From IMG/VR virus record IMGVR_UViG_3300025851_000085: a stretch of DNA of 6,640 nucleotides, one strand, 5' to 3'. Below are positions 1 through 6,640 of the stretch, in pieces; position 1 is the first letter of the stretch, and every line of letters begins with the position of its first letter. The translations under genes and the position numbers were made by a program. Source of the DNA: a virus. The notes below the pieces were generated by a model. That model made no database searches and was not told the origin of the DNA. It saw only the letters and a list, made by a program, of their open reading frames with translations.

Positions 1-127
1 AGCACAGCAAACGATTAAGAAAACAACAAAACCTGACATTCCGCTATCAACATTTGATAAAGGCGATTTTTTTACAAATTCAGTTGACGCTTTAAGAAAT
101 TCTGACTTGGGACAGATTTTTATAAAT
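1..127. repeat. Left copy of the exact 127-bp terminal direct repeat (identical to 6514-6640)
   Basis: Base-by-base reading gives agcacagcaaacgattaag...gacagatttttataaat at both ends. The repeat lies inside coding sequence of gene I. Confidence 0.95.
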
Positions 128-550: not shown

Positions 551-579
551 AAATACCTTATAGCCGCTATAGGGTATTT
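551..579. other. Hairpin with 13-bp stem and 3-nt loop (aaataccttatag ccg ctatagggtattt)
   Basis: Positions 551-563 pair with 579-567, giving 12 Watson-Crick pairs plus one T:G (558:572). Read on the minus strand, the stem is followed by a T-run. Confidence 0.6.
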
Positions 580-935: not shown

Positions 936-1136
936 ATGATTGATACAGCTTATGTTCTTATGTTTAACAATAGGTTTTTCAGAAAGTTTGGAAAATCAAA
1001 AAGGGTGCAAACTGCTTGGAGCTTAGCAGGAGCGGAATTGTTTTTAAGTACAGATGATGCTTTTGATGTTCAAATTAAATTAGAAGCTTTAGGAAAGAAA
1101 AACTTTCTAGTTAAAACGGTTCGTTTAGACGTTTAA
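936..1136 (+). CDS. Hypothetical 66-aa basic protein
   Basis: ORF with a strong SD (GGGGG, 5 nt spacer). It sits tightly between the 675 ORF and gene II (10-nt gaps). No family recognised. Confidence 0.6.
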   Translation: MIDTAYVLMFNNRFFRKFGKSKRVQTAWSLAGAELFLSTDDAFDVQIKLEALGKKNFLVKTVRLDV

Positions 1137-2253: not shown

Positions 2254-2282
2254 AGAATGCGGTAGTTGTTACACCGCATTCT
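2254..2282. terminator. Hairpin between the convergent gene II and minus-strand genes (10-bp perfect stem, 9-nt loop)
   Basis: agaatgcggt (2254-2263) pairs with accgcattct (2273-2282). On the minus strand it is followed by a U-rich CUUUAAG. On the plus strand there is no U-tract. It overlaps the minus-strand stop codon at 2281-2283. Confidence 0.45.
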
Positions 2283-2421
2283 AGTCCTGAGTACGGGACT
2301 CGGTGTCAATTTCAACTTCACCCCCCACAATAAAAGTTACCAACTCGTTCAGGGTAATATCGAGGCTTATCGCTAGCTTTTCAAGACCGTTTTGGGTCTT
2401 TTCGGTTATCTTGATAATCAT
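2281..2421 (-). CDS. 46-aa ribbon-helix-helix-like small DNA-binding protein (putative regulator)
   Basis: Hand translation gives MIIKITEKTQNGLEKLAISLDITLNELVTFIVGGEVEIDTESRTQD, ending in TAG. The SD is AAAGGA with an 8-nt spacer. The pattern is strand-helix-turn-helix, as in CopG/Arc-type proteins. It falls below the ORF-track size cutoff. Confidence 0.55.
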   Translation of the reverse strand: MIIKITEKTQNGLEKLAISLDITLNELVTFIVGGEVEIDTESRTQD

Positions 2422-2554
2422 TGTACATATCCTTTAGTACGTCCGCAGTCGAGATTAACTTACCCCTTTCTGCTGAAATTTCAAGCGCTAGAATCATAAT
2501 TTTTTCAGCAACATCTTCGTAACATCTTATAGTTTTTGTTTTCATGCTTGACAT
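2381..2554 (-). CDS. 57-aa (or 54-aa from ATG 2545) ribbon-helix-helix-like small DNA-binding protein (putative repressor)
   Basis: Hand translation gives MSSMKTKTIRCYEDVAEKIMILALEISAERGKLISTADVLKDMYNDYQDNRKDPKRS, ending in TGA at 2381-2383. AAGG lies 10 nt upstream of the second ATG (2545). The layout is RHH-like, with a G-K-L-I-S-T turn and helix cap. It is divergent from gene V. Confidence 0.55.
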   Translation of the reverse strand: MSSMKTKTIRCYEDVAEKIMILALEISAERGKLISTADVLKDMYNDYQDNRKDPKRS

Positions 2555-2642
2555 ACCTTAATTTATTTTCTAGTGTATACACCGTATACAGTGTTTTAAC
2601 TTATTAGCTGTTTTTTAATTTAATTACTTTTTAGGTGTTCTT
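2555..2642. promoter_or_regulatory. Divergent control region between the minus-strand regulator genes and the gene V to gene I operon, with an operator-like palindrome
   Basis: Perfect palindrome TGTATAC-acc-GTATACA at 2574-2590, which amounts to two GTATAC hexamers 9 bp apart. A consensus -35 TTGACA lies at 2548-2553 on the + strand, with a poor -10 (TAGTGT) 17 nt downstream. The AT-rich tract 2611-2630 has several TAATTT/TTTAAT -10-like hexamers. Confidence 0.5.
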
Positions 2643-2948
2643 ATGAAAATTTTAGTCGTTGGTTCTCGTTATTGTGTTGGTAATAAAAAAGCAGGTGGTT
2701 CTTTTGAGTTTAGCCAAGTATTTGCCGCTTCTCCCATAAATAATTTCCAGTCTGAAAACTTTAGTGTTGTATCGTCCGCAGGTTGTGAACCTGTAGAATT
2801 AAATTGCACTAAAGAAGTAGTAAATCAATTACAAGGGATTTCCCTACCCCGTGAAGTTGAATTTATAGTAACAAATGAGCTAAGAAATGGACAACTTGTT
2901 CCTGTTCTTGAGTCTGTTGATACTTCAAAAATGAGCAAGGTTGCATAA
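2643..2948 (+). CDS. gV: Probable ssDNA-binding protein (gene V-like)
   Basis: 101-aa ORF with SD AGGTG (5 nt spacer), in the position of gene V ahead of the coat genes. The N-terminal segment GNKKAGGSFEFSQVF resembles the recalled Pf3 SSB GTSAKGNPYTFQEGF and the M13 gVp SRQGKPYSLNEQ segment. Confidence 0.6.
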   Translation: MKILVVGSRYCVGNKKAGGSFEFSQVFAASPINNFQSENFSVVSSAGCEPVELNCTKEVVNQLQGISLPREVEFIVTNELRNGQLVPVLESVDTSKMSKVA

Positions 2949-3354: not shown

Positions 3355-3588
3355 ATGAATAAGCTACAAATGTTTGTTGGTTCTGCTATTGCTACTGGTT
3401 CAATGGCTGTTATGGGTGTGGCTAATGCCGCTTTAGATGGTACTGCTGTTACTGCTCTTGAGACTGAGGTTTTAGCCGATGTTGCAACTGCGTCTGGTTC
3501 TGGCTTTACCGTTTTTACAGTCGTAATTGCAACGTCTGTTGGTTTTGCATTATTAAGCAAATTTATTAATAAAGGCGCTAACGGTTAA
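3355..3588 (+). CDS. gVIII: Major coat protein precursor (pVIII-like), 77 aa
   Basis: ATG 3355 has SD GAGGA with a 7-nt spacer. The signal peptide is MNKLQMFVGSAIATGSMAVMGVANA, with an A-x-A cleavage motif. The predicted ~52-aa mature protein has an acidic N-terminus, a hydrophobic core and a basic C-terminus (KFINKGANG). The track start (GTG 3334) is in the same frame but lacks an SD. Confidence 0.85.
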   Translation: MNKLQMFVGSAIATGSMAVMGVANAALDGTAVTALETEVLADVATASGSGFTVFTVVIATSVGFALLSKFINKGANG

Positions 3589-3678: not shown

Positions 3679-5256
3679 ATGTACAAACTAGCCATCTTTC
3701 TTTTTTTCCTTTTTATTTCATCTTCAACTTTTGCCGTAACTTTTAAGCCGATAGGTAAAGCCAAATATTTTCCTCCCGTTCCTTATTCTTCAGCCGCTAT
3801 GAATACTGGTAAAATTCGTGGTGCCGTTACTATTGGCAATGCCTTTGCTATCGCTAAAATTAAACCGATGTCTGCTTTAGGTGTCGCTAAACAATTAGCT
3901 AAACGTCACCCTTTCACCTTAGCCGCTATGTTGGCATATGGTTATTACGAAGATGACATTGGGCAATGGATGGCATCACCACAGACCGATAACTTATTAA
4001 CCAAATCACCAAAAATCGAACAAATAGACGGTGTAACTGCTGTTGATAATATCGGTTACGATTATTTGGTTGGTGGTTCACATACTGAGCTTGATGTTGA
4101 TTCACTTTGTAAAAGTGTATTTCCTGAAACTGACCTACGTAGAAATGTTTCGGGTGCTTGGGAAACACTTTCTGTTGATGATACGGCAAAAAGTTACGGT
4201 GCTACCTGTACTATGGATAGATGGGACAATTGGGGTGGTCCACATTATGTTCAAACTGAACACCCTAGAATAATGATTGCTTATACAGATACTATGGTAG
4301 TTAGAAGTTGCCCTCCTGATGGTTACGCTTCTTATATAATACCCATTACAGAGGAAGATGGAACTATAGGTGCCTGTACCTCACACGAAGCACAAGAGGC
4401 AACAAAACCACAAATTTTACCAATGGATACTGCTGCTGATAATATGGGCGATAGTGTCATGGATACAATGCAACAAACTGACCCTGCAACACAATCACAG
4501 GGTGATACATGGGCTCCTTATGTAGACCCTTCAACGGGTAATGTCGAACCAGAATTTATTTCTTCATATAACGTCCCTGATGTTTCCCCAGAATTCAATG
4601 AAATGCTTAAAAGTGTTGCTAGTGGTCAAGCTCAAACTGCTGACCCTTTAGCCGCTCATTATGTTGACCCTGCAATGCTTGGAGCTACTCAAACCGCTGT
4701 TACTCAAGCTATGAATGATGCACCATTTATCGACCCTACAACTAGCACAATCGTTGAACCAACAACCTCCACGGAAGGAGCCGCTACACCTGAAACTATT
4801 CCTACTGGCGCAAGTGATTCTCCAATAAATATCACTATTGAAATGCCAGAAGATGACACGATTTCACAAACTGAATATGAAGCATCAAACGCGGCATTTT
4901 TTGACCAATTCGCGCAAGCTTCTGCTGATTCTCAAGCTAATGTTGATTTGAATATTGAGGAAATGAAAACTCAAGATTCTGATTTTATAGATAGCCTTAC
5001 ACCTGACATTATCGACGCTTCGGGGATACCTGATTTTCCATCATTAACGGGTCTTTGGTCTATTGGTGGTGGTTCTTGTGTTGCTTATACAACGGATTCA
5101 TCAATAGCAGGAAACACACGCACAATTACTTATGACAAACATTGTCCGACTTACAACAATGTTGTTCATCCTTTATTGGTTTGGTTTTTATATATCTCCA
5201 CAGCTTTATATATTATCCATTTAGCTGGGCGTACTTTTAAATCAACTGTTAGTTAA
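3679..5256 (+). CDS. Minor coat / host adsorption protein (pIII-like), 525 aa
   Basis: It occupies the position between gene VIII and gene VI. The N-terminal signal peptide is MYKLAIFLFFLFISSSTFA. The N-terminal domain contains Cys residues, followed by an acidic T/P/Q/D-rich linker (about aa 236-395). The C-terminus has a hydrophobic anchor (LLVWFLYISTALYIIHL) and a short basic tail. No sequence family recognised. Confidence 0.75.
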   Translation: MYKLAIFLFFLFISSSTFAVTFKPIGKAKYFPPVPYSSAAMNTGKIRGAVTIGNAFAIAKIKPMSALGVAKQLAKRHPFTLAAMLAYGYYEDDIGQWMASPQTDNLLTKSPKIEQIDGVTAVDNIGYDYLVGGSHTELDVDSLCKSVFPETDLRRNVSGAWETLSVDDTAKSYGATCTMDRWDNWGGPHYVQTEHPRIMIAYTDTMVVRSCPPDGYASYIIPITEEDGTIGACTSHEAQEATKPQILPMDTAADNMGDSVMDTMQQTDPATQSQGDTWAPYVDPSTGNVEPEFISSYNVPDVSPEFNEMLKSVASGQAQTADPLAAHYVDPAMLGATQTAVTQAMNDAPFIDPTTSTIVEPTTSTEGAATPETIPTGASDSPINITIEMPEDDTISQTEYEASNAAFFDQFAQASADSQANVDLNIEEMKTQDSDFIDSLTPDIIDASGIPDFPSLTGLWSIGGGSCVAYTTDSSIAGNTRTITYDKHCPTYNNVVHPLLVWFLYISTALYIIHLAGRTFKSTVS

Positions 5257-5596: not shown

Positions 5597-6640
5597 ATGG
5601 CGGCATTTTTTGAGGGTTCGAGGGGATCGGGAAAATCTAAATATTCGGTTGAACGTATGCAAAACCGTTTAAAATCTGGTCGCGCTGTTGCAACTAATCT
5701 CGATTTATTTCTTGATAAATTACTTCCTGACAACCCTAAAGCGCATTATGTTCGCCTACCTGATTTTCCGCGCTCAAGTGATTTATTGTTACTTGATAAT
5801 GCCTATCCTGAACTTGACCATGACGACCCAAAAACATACAACGATGATAAGTTTGGTTGTGTTGTCCTTGATGAACTTTTAACTTCTTTTAACTCTAGAA
5901 CTTGGAACGACCCAGACAGGGTAGAGGTTGTAAATTGGATAGTTCAAAGTCGAAAATATGGGTGGGATTTATGTTTAATTGGTCAATCTATTGATGGTGT
6001 TGATAAGCAAATAAAAGAAACTGTAATTGATGAACTCTATTCTTTTCGTAGTTCTCAAAATATGTTCGGGGGTGTTTTTTGGAATTTATTTTTCAAACCT
6101 TGGTGGACTAAAGTTGTCCCTAAATTTCATATTTGCACACGTTATGATGGAAGAAAAAAAGATAAAAACCAGAAGATAGGGGGAGACCATTTTAGACGTA
6201 ACGATTTACACGATTGTTATAAAACTGGTCAACAATTTAAAAAAGACGTTCGTTTAATTGCTCCAGAAAAGGGTAATAAAATGATAGAAATTGATGATCG
6301 GGCGAGTTATTCCGTTTTGCATCCTCATTATTTTGGAGTTCCAAAAGTTGAAAAAGCAAGCGCTGAAAGTGAAACGGTAAAACCAGAAATTCCAGAAATT
6401 CCAGAAGAATTAAAAAAACGAGCTAAGGTAATAGAGGCTCAAACCTCACCGTATTTTTTGCTAGCGCTTCTCGTTGTTTTTGGTGGTCTTTACTATTTCA
6501 TTAATGATTGGTCAGCACAGCAAACGATTAAGAAAACAACAAAACCTGACATTCCGCTATCAACATTTGATAAAGGCGATTTTTTTACAAATTCAGTTGA
6601 CGCTTTAAGAAATTCTGACTTGGGACAGATTTTTATAAAT
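5597..6640 (+). CDS. gI: Gene I assembly ATPase (pI / Zot family), 5' 348 codons; the ORF is open to the window end and continues at 2..343
   Basis: Not in the ORF track because there is no stop within the window. SD AGGGG with a 6-nt spacer. Walker A is GSRGSGKS and Walker B is GCVVLDE. Segments match recalled M13 pI by eye: ATNLDL, RLPDFPRSSDLL with RIPDKPSISDLL, FNSRTWNDPDR with FNTRSWNDKER, and SRKYGWDLCLIGQSIDGVDKQ with ARKLGWDIIFLVQDLSIVDKQ. A transmembrane segment YFLLALLVVFGGLYYFI lies at about 6452-6502. Confidence 0.92.
   Translation, partial: MAAFFEGSRGSGKSKYSVERMQNRLKSGRAVATNLDLFLDKLLPDNPKAHYVRLPDFPRSSDLLLLDNAYPELDHDDPKTYNDDKFGCVVLDELLTSFNSRTWNDPDRVEVVNWIVQSRKYGWDLCLIGQSIDGVDKQIKETVIDELYSFRSSQNMFGGVFWNLFFKPWWTKVVPKFHICTRYDGRKKDKNQKIGGDHFRRNDLHDCYKTGQQFKKDVRLIAPEKGNKMIEIDDRASYSVLHPHYFGVPKVEKASAESETVKPEIPEIPEELKKRAKVIEAQTSPYFLLALLVVFGGLYYFINDWSAQQTIKKTTKPDIPLSTFDKGDFFTNSVDALRNSDLGQIFIN
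6383..6409 (+). repeat. 9-bp tandem repeat (ccagaaatt x2 plus ccagaagaa) encoding PEI-PEI-PEE within gene I
   Basis: Direct reading of 6383-6409. The repeat is in frame, in the cytoplasmic linker upstream of the pI transmembrane segment. Confidence 0.9.
6514..6640. repeat. Right copy of the exact 127-bp terminal direct repeat (identical to 1-127)
   Basis: Base-by-base identity with 1-127. Confidence 0.95.

What the first reader, a model, noticed from the sequence alone, without database searches (positions are those of the whole stretch)
2281..2554. Antisense pair of overlapping ribbon-helix-helix-like genes between gene II and gene V
In Ff-type phages genes II/X and V are contiguous and co-transcribed. 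Here they are separated by about 390 bp that encodes, on the opposite strand, two tiny ORFs missed by the ORF track: 57/54 aa (2554/2545 to 2381) and 46 aa (2421 to 2281). Both start with a short beta-strand-like segment (KTIRCYEDV; IIKITEKT) followed by two helices joined by a turn with an S/T cap, the layout of Arc/Mnt/CopG repressors. They overlap by 41 nt in different frames, and the second has its own good SD (AAAGGA). The module converges on gene II over a shared hairpin and diverges from the structural/assembly operon. It is therefore placed to uncouple replication from virion production, for example as a repressor or repressor-modulator pair, or as a heterodimeric RHH. This is the only antisense coding in the genome and the most likely site of lineage-specific regulation such as a carrier state or superinfection immunity.
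Basis: partly seen in the sequence, partly recalled or inferred. Interest (0 to 1): 0.75.

Follow-up and report, generated by a model that had tools for sequence, protein, structure and literature searches.

The report
Antisense two-gene regulator cassette in inovirus
Two tiny overlapping genes on the opposite strand of a small filamentous phage genome are real and conserved, and they most likely encode a ribbon-helix-helix repressor and an acidic partner that control the promoter of the virion genes; this is a rearranged version of a known kind of phage switch.

Summary
Both minus-strand ORFs exist and overlap by 41 nt. The first more likely starts at 2545 (54 aa) than at 2554. The same pair lies between the gene V-like gene and rep in four diverged lineages (rep 52-73% identical). 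In every pairwise comparison the annotated frame is stop-free and has the lowest pN/pS and highest amino-acid identity of the six frames.

ORF57 is a divergent member of phrog_2503, an uncharacterised inovirus family that normally lies divergently upstream of rep, where CTXphi carries rstR. Profile comparison and structure prediction place this family in the ribbon-helix-helix (RHH) class. ORF46 has no detectable relatives outside this lineage. Its first 33 residues model as an RHH domain, but it is acidic (pI about 4.3) in all four lineages.

A GTATAC-N3-GTATAC palindrome occurs once per genome, always in the divergent promoter region. I take it as the likely operator.

The "shared hairpin" has variable stems but a conserved loop (TGTWACACC). 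By analogy with CTXphi, it is probably the Rep nick site, ori(+).

Repressor function and the uncoupling of replication from assembly are inferred, not shown. I rate this a new variant of a known kind, of moderate interest.

The parts
2381..2545 (-). ORF57, most likely 54 aa starting at M4 (an alternative ATG at 2554 would give 57 aa). Divergent member of phrog_2503. Predicted RHH-type DNA-binding protein and candidate repressor.
   Evidence: phrog_2503, E 2.2e-4; called as 54 aa; purifying selection in this frame; family alignment; AF2 pLDDT 86; NikR, Reg576 and PrpA RHH among the top folds, not significant; hhalign against the RHH reference.
2281..2421 (-). ORF46, a 46-aa acidic RHH-like protein. 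The conserved core is residues 1-34 (2421-2320). The tail and stop codon are variable.
   Evidence: conserved in four lineages, best frame; AF2 pLDDT 87: E2-6, H7-20, H24-32; PutA RHH 2rbf_A: TM 0.68/0.70, rmsd 0.8; CopG, ParG and antitoxin RHH models at rmsd 0.6-1.1; pI 4.2-4.4.
2430..2435 (-). Shine-Dalgarno sequence AAAGGA of ORF46, inside the ORF57 coding sequence and 8 nt from the ATG.
   Evidence: Conserved as AAGGGA in L009 and AAAGGA in L013.
2574..2590 (.). Candidate operator: the perfect palindrome TGTATAC-ACC-GTATACA, i.e. two GTATAC hexamers 9 bp apart.
   Evidence: only such site in the genome. GTATAC-N3-GTATAC occurs exactly once in each related locus, always upstream of the ORF57 homologue. 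L009 has three tandem copies plus one more copy nearer gene V.
2548..2576 (+). Candidate promoter of the gene V/structural operon: TTGACA (2548-2553), 17 nt, TAGTGT (2571-2576). The -10 element overlaps the operator.
   Evidence: my own PWM scan; best hit on this strand. The same TTGACA-17-TATTGT is found in L009. The stricter consensus scan did not report it. Inferred.
2572..2599 (-). Weak candidate promoter of the ORF57-ORF46 operon: TTAAAA (2599-2594), 16 nt, TACACT (2577-2572). The operator lies in its spacer.
   Evidence: low score. Inferred only.
2254..2282 (.). Hairpin between the rep stop and the ORF46 stop. Probable Rep nick site/ori(+), and possibly also a terminator of the leftward operon. 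The + strand loop reads AGTTGTTAC followed by ACC.
   Evidence: folds in all four lineages; z -2.7 to -5.7. The stem sequence is entirely different in L013. The loop motif TGTWACACC is conserved in L011/L012, L016 and L017 (GTGTAAC in a hairpin in L002). CTXphi analogy: and PMC4439123.
1147..2253 (+). rep (G2P/RstA-type replication initiator), convergent with the module. Context.
2643..2948 (+). Gene V-like/RstB-like ssDNA-binding protein gene, first gene of the rightward structural and assembly operon and divergent from the module. Context.
   Evidence: CTX_RstB, E 0.0014, below cutoff; phrog_929, E 1.6e-9.

Best explanation
The 274-nt stretch is a leftward two-gene operon, the only one in a 6513-nt circular inovirus genome.

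ORF57, the first gene (54 aa, 2545-2381), encodes a small neutral-to-basic ribbon-helix-helix protein of the phrog_2503 family. In related inoviruses this family occupies the slot that rstR occupies in CTXphi: after the origin hairpin and divergent from the main rightward promoter. It most likely binds, as a dimer or dimer of dimers, the GTATAC-N3-GTATAC palindrome at 2574-2590. That palindrome overlaps the -10 region of the best candidate promoter for the gene V, coat and assembly operon, and lies in the spacer of a weak candidate promoter for ORF57 itself. Binding would therefore repress virion-gene expression and autoregulate the module.

ORF46, the second gene (2421-2281), starts inside the first gene and has its own ribosome-binding site. 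It encodes an acidic RHH-like protein found only in this lineage. It most likely modulates the repressor by pairing with it or competing with it, rather than binding DNA alone.

The hairpin that closes the operon is probably the Rep nick site, ori(+).

Shown: the genes are real and conserved; family membership; predicted folds; the conserved palindrome and hairpin.

Inferred: DNA binding, which protein binds, the promoters, repression, and the role of ORF46.
For: - Real genes. Four lineages keep both ORFs, the overlap, the Shine-Dalgarno sequence and the ATG, while rep has diverged to 52-73% identity.
- Family. ORF57 matches phrog_2503 at E 2.2e-4. Clear members are D_HF5_61 (1e-27), Dulem virus 56 (1e-26) and phiAFP1 gene_2 (3e-12). 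They align over the whole length with invariant R7, L19, A20, E22, S24, D35 and Y44, and they lie divergently upstream of rep. Homologues in Pasteurellaceae prophages lie the same way.
- Expression. phiAFP1 ORF2 is transcribed during infection (PMC9769780).
- RHH class. The 12-sequence ORF57 family against an RHH reference alignment gives hhalign Prob 93.5, P 2.4e-7, score 33, against a maximum of 12.8 in 150 column shuffles. The ORF46 family scores 21.9 against a maximum of 16.4 in 200 shuffles. AF2 models have pLDDT 86-87. The best structural superpositions are RHH domains.
- Operator. The palindrome is unique in the genome and conserved in the same intergenic region in all lineages, although the flanks diverge. 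The best rightward promoter candidate overlaps it in both the window and L009.
- Charge. The ORF57 family has pI 6.7-9.8 and a basic N-terminus. ORF46 has pI 4.2-4.4 in all four lineages.
Against: - No Pfam, NCBIfam or PDB sequence hit reaches significance for either protein.
- All Foldseek E-values are 0.6-10, i.e. not significant for such short models.
- The N-terminus of ORF57 is coil, not strand, in the monomer model.
- The strict promoter scan finds nothing in the intergenic region, and my PWM hits are weak for the leftward promoter.
- Two GTATAC hexamers alone are not rare in this genome (71 of 200 shuffles). Only their spacing, position and conservation argue for function.
- No experiment on any family member shows DNA binding.
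- Pasteurellaceae and D_HF5_61 relatives carry different repeats (ACCGCATGCAA) in the equivalent region, so operator identity is not conserved across the family.
Confidence: 0.6

Rival explanations
1. Heterodimeric RHH. ORF57 and ORF46 are made in fixed proportion by translational coupling and pair through their N-terminal strands. The resulting asymmetric RHH dimer is the operator-binding species.
For: The overlap of the two genes (41-62 nt) and the internal Shine-Dalgarno sequence are conserved. Both proteins are RHH-like. Their charges are complementary.
Against: ORF57 homologues in other inoviruses work without any ORF46 partner. The candidate operator is a perfect palindrome, which suits symmetric homodimers. 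The two families are not detectably related (hhalign Prob 4%). Helix A differs in length by 4 residues.
Confidence: 0.15
2. Roles reversed or separate. ORF46 is the operator-binding autoregulator, like the minimal CopG. ORF57 acts elsewhere, for example at the adjacent origin hairpin or on replication and copy number, as plasmid RHH proteins (omega, ParG) do.
For: The ORF46 core superposes on DNA-bound PutA RHH at 0.8 A and keeps K4, K8 and T9 invariant. ORF57-family genes always lie next to the conserved-loop hairpin. Some family members give weak ParG or DUF5388 hits (E 0.026-0.12).
Against: ORF46 has net charge -4 to -5 and pI about 4.3 in every lineage. The ORF57 family has the basic N-terminal arm typical of RHH DNA binders. 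No ParA-type or toxin partner is encoded in the 6.5-kb genome.
Confidence: 0.15
3. The ORFs are not functional proteins. The conservation reflects plus-strand coding, an antisense RNA, or cis elements such as the origin.
For: The complementary frame gives an echo of the selection signal (anti1). The region adjoins a probable origin. Gene callers missed ORF46 in three of the four lineages (all but L009).
Against: Plus-strand frames carry stops or change length between lineages. Amino-acid replacements are conservative only in the annotated frames. ORF57 has protein homologues across many inoviruses. There is no Rfam match in the region. Both AF2 models are confident.
Confidence: 0.03

Closest known systems
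CTXphi regulatory cassette ig-1 (ori+) / rstR / ig-2
   Same: A leftward-transcribed small repressor gene lies between the origin hairpin, downstream of its 3' end, and a divergent promoter region that drives the phage's rightward operon. The Rep is of the same RstA/G2P type. In CTXphi the nick lies in the apical loop of a GC-stem hairpin, between G and T (PMC4439123). The conserved loop here contains TG|TWAC.
   Different: RstR is a larger protein (112 aa from the annotated CDS) and, from my own knowledge, a helix-turn-helix repressor, not RHH-like. In CTXphi the divergent partner is rstA (rep); here it is the gene V-like gene, and rep sits on the other side, convergent with the module. There is a second overlapping gene (ORF46). 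No dif-like attP or integration evidence was found.
phrog_2503 proteins of other inoviruses (Alteromonas phage phiAFP1 ORF2, Dulem virus 56, Inovirus D_HF5_61, Pasteurellaceae prophages)
   Same: These are homologous to ORF57 over the full length. They are small, antisense to the rest of the genome and followed by a hairpin with the same loop motif. phiAFP1 ORF2 is expressed (PMC9769780).
   Different: They share only 26-33% identity with ORF57. They lie upstream of rep, not between rep and gene V. They have no ORF46-like partner (Dulem virus 56 has an unrelated 91-aa gene instead). Different repeats occupy the promoter region. The PHROG entry and the phiAFP1 paper give them no function.
Pseudomonas phage PMBT54 ORF2 (annotated MatP_C, RHH-like)
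   Same: It is a 64-aa antisense gene placed immediately after rep and before the ssDNA-binding genes, so the same position is held by the same fold class in an isolated inovirus (PMC10534721).
   Different: It has no detectable sequence similarity to ORF57 or ORF46. It is a single gene and overlaps the 3' end of rep.
Arc/Mnt of phage P22 immI and CopG of plasmid pMV158 (from my own knowledge)
   Same: These are very small RHH repressors that bind short repeated or palindromic operators overlapping promoters. P22 uses two RHH proteins at overlapping divergent promoters. CopG controls a rolling-circle Rep.
   Different: There is no significant sequence match to Pfam RHH families. ORF57 has a 4-residue longer helix A and a longer inter-helix loop. 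ORF46 is acidic. Here the two genes are co-transcribed and overlapping.

Membership tests
Ribbon-helix-helix (Arc/MetJ/CopG) superfamily | N-terminal beta-strand followed by two helices (beta-alpha-alpha, about 40-45 residues) | tested here: met
   ORF46: the AF2 single-sequence model has pLDDT 87 with E2-6, H7-20 and H24-32. Residues 1-33 superpose on PutA RHH 2rbf_A at rmsd 0.8 A, TM 0.68/0.70, and on many CopG, ParG and antitoxin RHH models at 0.6-1.1 A. ORF57: the AF2 model has pLDDT 86 with H10-27 and H33-49, and residues 1-9 are coil in the monomer. hhalign aligns residues 1-9 to the RHH strand. Foldseek E-values are not significant.
Ribbon-helix-helix (Arc/MetJ/CopG) superfamily | Significant match to curated RHH sequence models | tested here: not met
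   No Pfam family reaches threshold for any member. The best hits are DUF5388 at E 0.026 and ParG at E 0.12. PDB sequence searches are also empty. PMBT54 ORF2, which its authors annotate as RHH-like, also gets no Pfam hit here, so this test is insensitive for such short proteins.
Ribbon-helix-helix (Arc/MetJ/CopG) superfamily | Profile-profile similarity to known RHH proteins in the correct register | tested here: met
   The ORF57 family (12 sequences) against a reference of 8 RHH domains gives Prob 93.5, P 2.4e-7, score 33.0, against a shuffle maximum of 12.8. The ORF46 family gives score 21.9, P 1e-4, against a shuffle maximum of 16.4.
Ribbon-helix-helix (Arc/MetJ/CopG) superfamily | Tight turn between the helices (G-x-S/T/N) with an N-cap on helix B | tested here: inconclusive
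   ORF57 has G28 (nearly invariant) followed by S32/T33, with two extra loop residues. ORF46 has the invariant S19-L20-D21 followed by T/S23, i.e. D-x-T instead of G-x-T, as in the PutA sequence used in A5.
Ribbon-helix-helix (Arc/MetJ/CopG) superfamily | Obligate intertwined dimer whose two strands form the DNA-reading sheet; binding to repeated operator subsites | not testable with these tools
   No multimer or protein-DNA prediction was available. A candidate operator made of two GTATAC palindromes 9 bp apart exists.
phrog_2503 (uncharacterised inovirus protein family) | Match to the family profile over its whole length | tested here: met
   ORF57 scores E 2.2e-4 and 21.7 bits, with residues 3-49 on profile positions 2-48 of 65. 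This is weak but full-length. Alignment with strong members supports it (invariant R7, L19, A20, E22, S24, D35, Y44), as do intermediate relatives P0012, P0020, P0023 and P0024.
CTXphi RstR-type immunity repressor | Helix-turn-helix (Xre-like) fold; divergent from rstA; confers immunity | tested here: not met
   The predicted fold is RHH-like, not HTH. The divergent partner is gene V, not rep. Immunity was not testable. ORF57 is a positional analogue only.
Type II antitoxin / ParG- or omega-type partition or copy-control RHH | Adjacent toxin or ParA-type ATPase partner | tested here: not met
   No such gene exists in the 6.5-kb genome. No PADLOC hit was found. ORF46 is too small and has no toxin family match.

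The most novel reading that the evidence does not exclude
In this lineage the regulatory cassette (origin hairpin, repressor, divergent promoter) has been moved from in front of rep to in front of gene V. It has also gained, partly by overprinting the repressor's 3' end, a second acidic RHH-like protein that acts as a built-in anti-repressor or heterodimer partner. The result would be a self-contained two-protein switch that gates virion production separately from replication, giving a plasmid-like carrier state in a non-integrating inovirus.
Probability: 0.2. Interest if true: 0.65.

Novelty: new variant of a known kind. Interest (0 to 1): 0.45.

Why it matters
Three things would follow if the explanation holds.

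- A function for an uncharacterised family. phrog_2503 is found in inoviruses of Alteromonas, in Pasteurellaceae prophages and in saliva and metagenome inoviruses. It currently has no annotated function. Assigning it to the RHH class, as the probable repressor in the rstR slot, gives that family a testable function.
- A natural experiment. The lineage studied here has the same cassette facing gene V instead of rep, and it has an extra overlapping acidic RHH-like gene. If the repressor model holds, comparing the two layouts would show how filamentous phages balance replication against virion export.
- A candidate origin motif. The conserved loop (TGTWACACC on variable stems) is a candidate ori(+) signature. 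It could help annotate origins in RstA-type inoviruses.

Tried and rejected
Searches that found nothing useful:
- Megablast of the whole genome against GenBank phages found nothing.
- tblastn of ORF46 and its L013 variant against phages found nothing.
- tblastn of ORF57 found only E=4, and tblastn of relative P0020 found only noise.
- The word-indexed protein search found no ORF46 relative, not even ORF46 itself, so it is uncalled in public data for this genome.
- The exhaustive HMMER search with ORF57 added only three small relatives plus repetitive false positives.
- Scans of IMG/VR and GTDB genomes with rep and ORF57 profiles found no relatives, so the host and any prophage form remain unknown.

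Ideas tested and dropped:
- Paralogy of the two ORFs is not supported (hhalign Prob 4%).
- Homology to PMBT54 ORF2 was rejected.
- A toxin-antitoxin or defence role is unsupported. There is no PADLOC hit and no partner gene.
- A -1 programmed frameshift fusion of the two ORFs is unlikely. ORF46 is in the +1 frame and has its own conserved Shine-Dalgarno sequence and ATG.
- No dif-like XerCD site scores above shuffled controls.
- No second copy of the operator exists elsewhere, including upstream of rep.
- Rfam gave only a chance sub-threshold miRNA hit elsewhere in the genome.

Full report
**What the window is.** The first 127 nt equal the last 127 nt, so the window is a circular genome of 6513 nt. 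It is a small inovirus. On the + strand it carries orf83 and orf66, then a G2P/RstA-type rep at 1147-2253 (Pfam Phage_CRI plus G2P_X_C; phrog_702 at 2.5e-66). Next come an RstB-like ssDNA-binding gene at 2643-2948 (phrog_929), small coat genes, a 525-aa gene III-like gene, a gene VI-like gene, and a Zot/gene I that wraps around the window ends. It has no close relative in GenBank phages. The best rep matches are 38% identical, in Vibrio cyclitrophicus inoviruses.

**The observation.** The two minus-strand ORFs, their 41-nt overlap, the AAAGGA 8 nt before the second ATG, the 389-nt gap between rep and the gene V-like gene, and the hairpin at 2254-2282 between the two stop codons are all present as described. 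In annotated relatives rep and the ssDNA-binding gene are contiguous and co-directional, so the gap is a real peculiarity.

**Are they genes?** I found the same arrangement in four lineages:
- the window itself (identical JGI contigs L004-L007);
- L008 (about 90% DNA identity);
- L009 (rep 73% identical);
- L013 (rep 52% identical).

Each has an ORF57 homologue that starts with MKTK. Each also has an overlapping ORF46 homologue that starts with MIIK, preceded by AAAGGA or AAGGGA, followed by a hairpin and convergent with rep. A public gene caller called the 46-aa ORF in L009.

For window versus L008, pN/pS is 0.07 for ORF57 (8 synonymous, 2 non-synonymous changes). It is 0.20 for residues 1-34 of ORF46, similar to rep at 0.24. 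Across all six lineage pairs and all six frames, the annotated frame is the only one without stops, and it has the lowest pN/pS and the highest amino-acid identity, for both ORFs.

The ORF46 tail (residues 35-46) and its stop codon are not conserved. In L008 and L013 the frame runs on through the hairpin.

The conserved start of the first gene is M4 (2545), giving 54 aa. The upstream ATG is TTG in L009 and absent at that position in L013. The AAGG lies 10 nt from M4 but only 1 nt from the upstream ATG. The JGI caller also chose M4.

**What is ORF57?** It matches phrog_2503 (function unknown) at E 2.2e-4 over its full length. Strong members of that family align with it along the whole protein:
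- Inovirus D_HF5_61 (1.2e-27);
- Dulem virus 56 (1.3e-26);
- Alteromonas phage phiAFP1 gene_2 (3.2e-12).

Homologues in Pasteurellaceae prophages align the same way.

In all of these the gene is antisense to the rest of the genome and lies divergently upstream of rep. That is the position of rstR in CTXphi. The phiAFP1 paper reports no database similarity for ORF2 but shows that it is transcribed, in the late class (PMC9769780).

Pfam and PDB sequence searches give nothing significant. A 12-sequence family alignment compared with a reference alignment of eight classical RHH domains gives hhalign Prob 93.5, P 2.4e-7 and score 33.0, against a maximum of 12.8 in 150 column-shuffled controls. The strand, helix A, turn and helix B are in register, with a 4-residue insertion in helix A and 2 residues in the loop.

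AF2 with an 11-sequence alignment gives pLDDT 86, with two helices after a 9-residue N-terminal arm. The Foldseek list is headed by NikR and includes Reg576 and the PrpA RHH domain (TM 0.66), all at non-significant E-values. I therefore regard the RHH class as probable for this family.

**What is ORF46?** It has no relative outside the four lineages in any search. AF2 on the single sequence is confident (pLDDT 87): strand 2-6, helix 7-20, helix 24-32. Residues 1-33 superpose on the DNA-bound PutA RHH domain at 0.8 A (TM 0.68/0.70). They also superpose on many viral CopG, ParG, antitoxin and HicB-type RHH models at 0.6-1.1 A. E-values are again non-significant because of the short length. hhalign against the RHH reference scores 21.9, against a maximum of 16.4 in 200 shuffles.

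ORF46 is acidic in all four lineages (net -4 to -5, pI 4.2-4.4). The ORF57 family is neutral to basic, with a basic N-terminus. This favours ORF57 as the DNA binder and ORF46 as a modulator. The two families are not detectably paralogous.

**Cis elements.** The intergenic region 2546-2642 contains TGTATAC-ACC-GTATACA (2574-2590), the only such site in the genome. Two GTATAC hexamers by themselves are not unusual. However, GTATAC-N3-GTATAC occurs exactly once in every related locus, always upstream of the ORF57 homologue, although the flanking sequence has diverged. L009 has three tandem copies and one further copy nearer gene V.

My PWM scan places the best rightward promoter candidate at TTGACA (2548)-17-TAGTGT (2576). 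Its -10 overlaps the palindrome, and the same TTGACA-17-TATTGT is present in L009. The leftward candidates are weak, and the strict scan reports none. The Pasteurellaceae and D_HF5_61 relatives carry different repeats (ACCGCATGCAA) in the equivalent region.

**The hairpin.** It folds in all four lineages. In L013 the stem sequence is entirely different (GGGAGG/CCTCCC), yet the loop keeps GGTGTTAC. A hairpin with other stems but the same loop follows the leftward genes in the Actinobacillus prophages and Dulem virus 56. A further one lies upstream of rep in silverpheasant213, and D_HF5_61 has a hairpin containing GTGTAAC after its leftward genes. On the rep strand the conserved motif is TGTWACACC.

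In CTXphi, RstA nicks between G and T in the apical loop of a hairpin of ori(+) (PMC4439123). The CTXphi hairpin CCCCCGT-CTAGTATT-ACGGGGG lies downstream of the 3' end of rstR. By analogy, the "shared hairpin" is probably the Rep nick site, and it may also terminate the leftward operon. The cassette of hairpin, leftward regulator and divergent promoter therefore equals ig-1, rstR and ig-2 of CTXphi. The difference is that in this lineage it faces gene V, and rep lies on the far side of the hairpin.

**Mechanism and limits.** The best-supported model has four elements:
- ORF57 is an RHH repressor that binds the GTATAC palindrome.
- That binding controls the gene V, coat and assembly operon and ORF57's own promoter.
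- ORF46 is a translationally coupled acidic partner that modulates the repressor.
- The hairpin is the origin.

None of the binding or regulatory steps has been shown. Whether replication is truly uncoupled from assembly depends on whether rep has its own promoter. The 331-nt intergenic region upstream of orf83 shows no consensus promoter, only a 29-bp palindrome at 551-579. Rep could therefore be the distal end of one long rightward transcript.

**Comparison with known systems and novelty.** Antisense small regulators are known in inoviruses, for example rstR. Pseudomonas phage PMBT54 even has an RHH-like antisense gene directly after rep, plus an omega-like RHH gene (PMC10534721), but it is unrelated in sequence. 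Four points are new here:
- the RHH assignment and rstR-like role proposed for phrog_2503;
- the displaced position of the cassette;
- the overlapping acidic second gene, which has no family;
- the conserved origin-loop motif.

This is a new variant of a known kind, of moderate interest.

Noticed in passing
window 1-127 and 6514-6640: The first 127 nt are identical to the last 127 nt, an assembly overlap. The true genome is a 6513-nt circle, and the Zot/gene I ORF (from 5597) wraps to about 343. Sister contigs L004 and L005 carry overlaps of 127 and 123 nt at other positions.
   Followed up: yes
window 2254-2282; L013 2128-2157; L011 about 8255-8290; L016 about 270-300; L017 about 1830-1860; L002 about 5965-6010: A hairpin with lineage-specific stems but a conserved loop (TGTWACACC on the rep strand) is found after the leftward regulatory genes in several inoviruses with an RstA-type Rep. 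It resembles the CTXphi ori(+) hairpin, which is nicked G|T in its apical loop. It is a candidate general ori(+) signature.
   Followed up: partly
window 3900-4700 (gene III-like) and 1100-1800 (rep N-terminal half): Between the window and L008 these two stretches fall to 60-80% identity, while most of the genome is 95-100% identical. The pattern suggests a mosaic or diversifying receptor-binding domain in gene III and recombination in rep.
   Followed up: no
window 551-579: A 29-bp near-perfect palindrome, AAATACCTTATAGC-x-GCTATAGGGTATTT, lies in the 331-nt intergenic region between Zot and orf83. No consensus promoter or terminator is found there. It could be a packaging signal, a minus-strand origin or a regulatory site.
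   Followed up: no
L008 about 5930-6140; L013 1990-2211: In two of the four lineages the ORF46 homologue has lost its stop codon (TAG to TGG in L008). It then reads 22-27 codons further, through the hairpin and antisense to the 3' end of rep. If transcripts end at the hairpin, these would be non-stop mRNAs.
   Followed up: partly
window 936-1136 and 675-926: orf66 matches phrog_37694 and phrog_7129 (E about 1e-10, function unknown). orf83 has no family. Both lie directly upstream of rep on the same strand and are under purifying selection (pN/pS 0.21 and 0.06 against L008).
   Followed up: no
L011 7868-7945; L002 4153-4223: Pasteurellaceae prophages and Inovirus D_HF5_61 carry two copies, 44-45 bp apart, of ATACCGCAT (extended to ATACCGCATGCAA in the Pasteurellaceae prophages). 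They lie between the phrog_2503 gene and rep and are the probable operators of those relatives. The half-site ACCGCATGCA loosely resembles ACCGTATACA in the window. The Actinobacillus prophage is present as a tandem array.
   Followed up: partly
window 3465-3549: A sub-threshold Rfam hit to mir-991 (26.8 bits against a gathering score of 100) lies inside the major-coat gene region. It is almost certainly chance.
   Followed up: no
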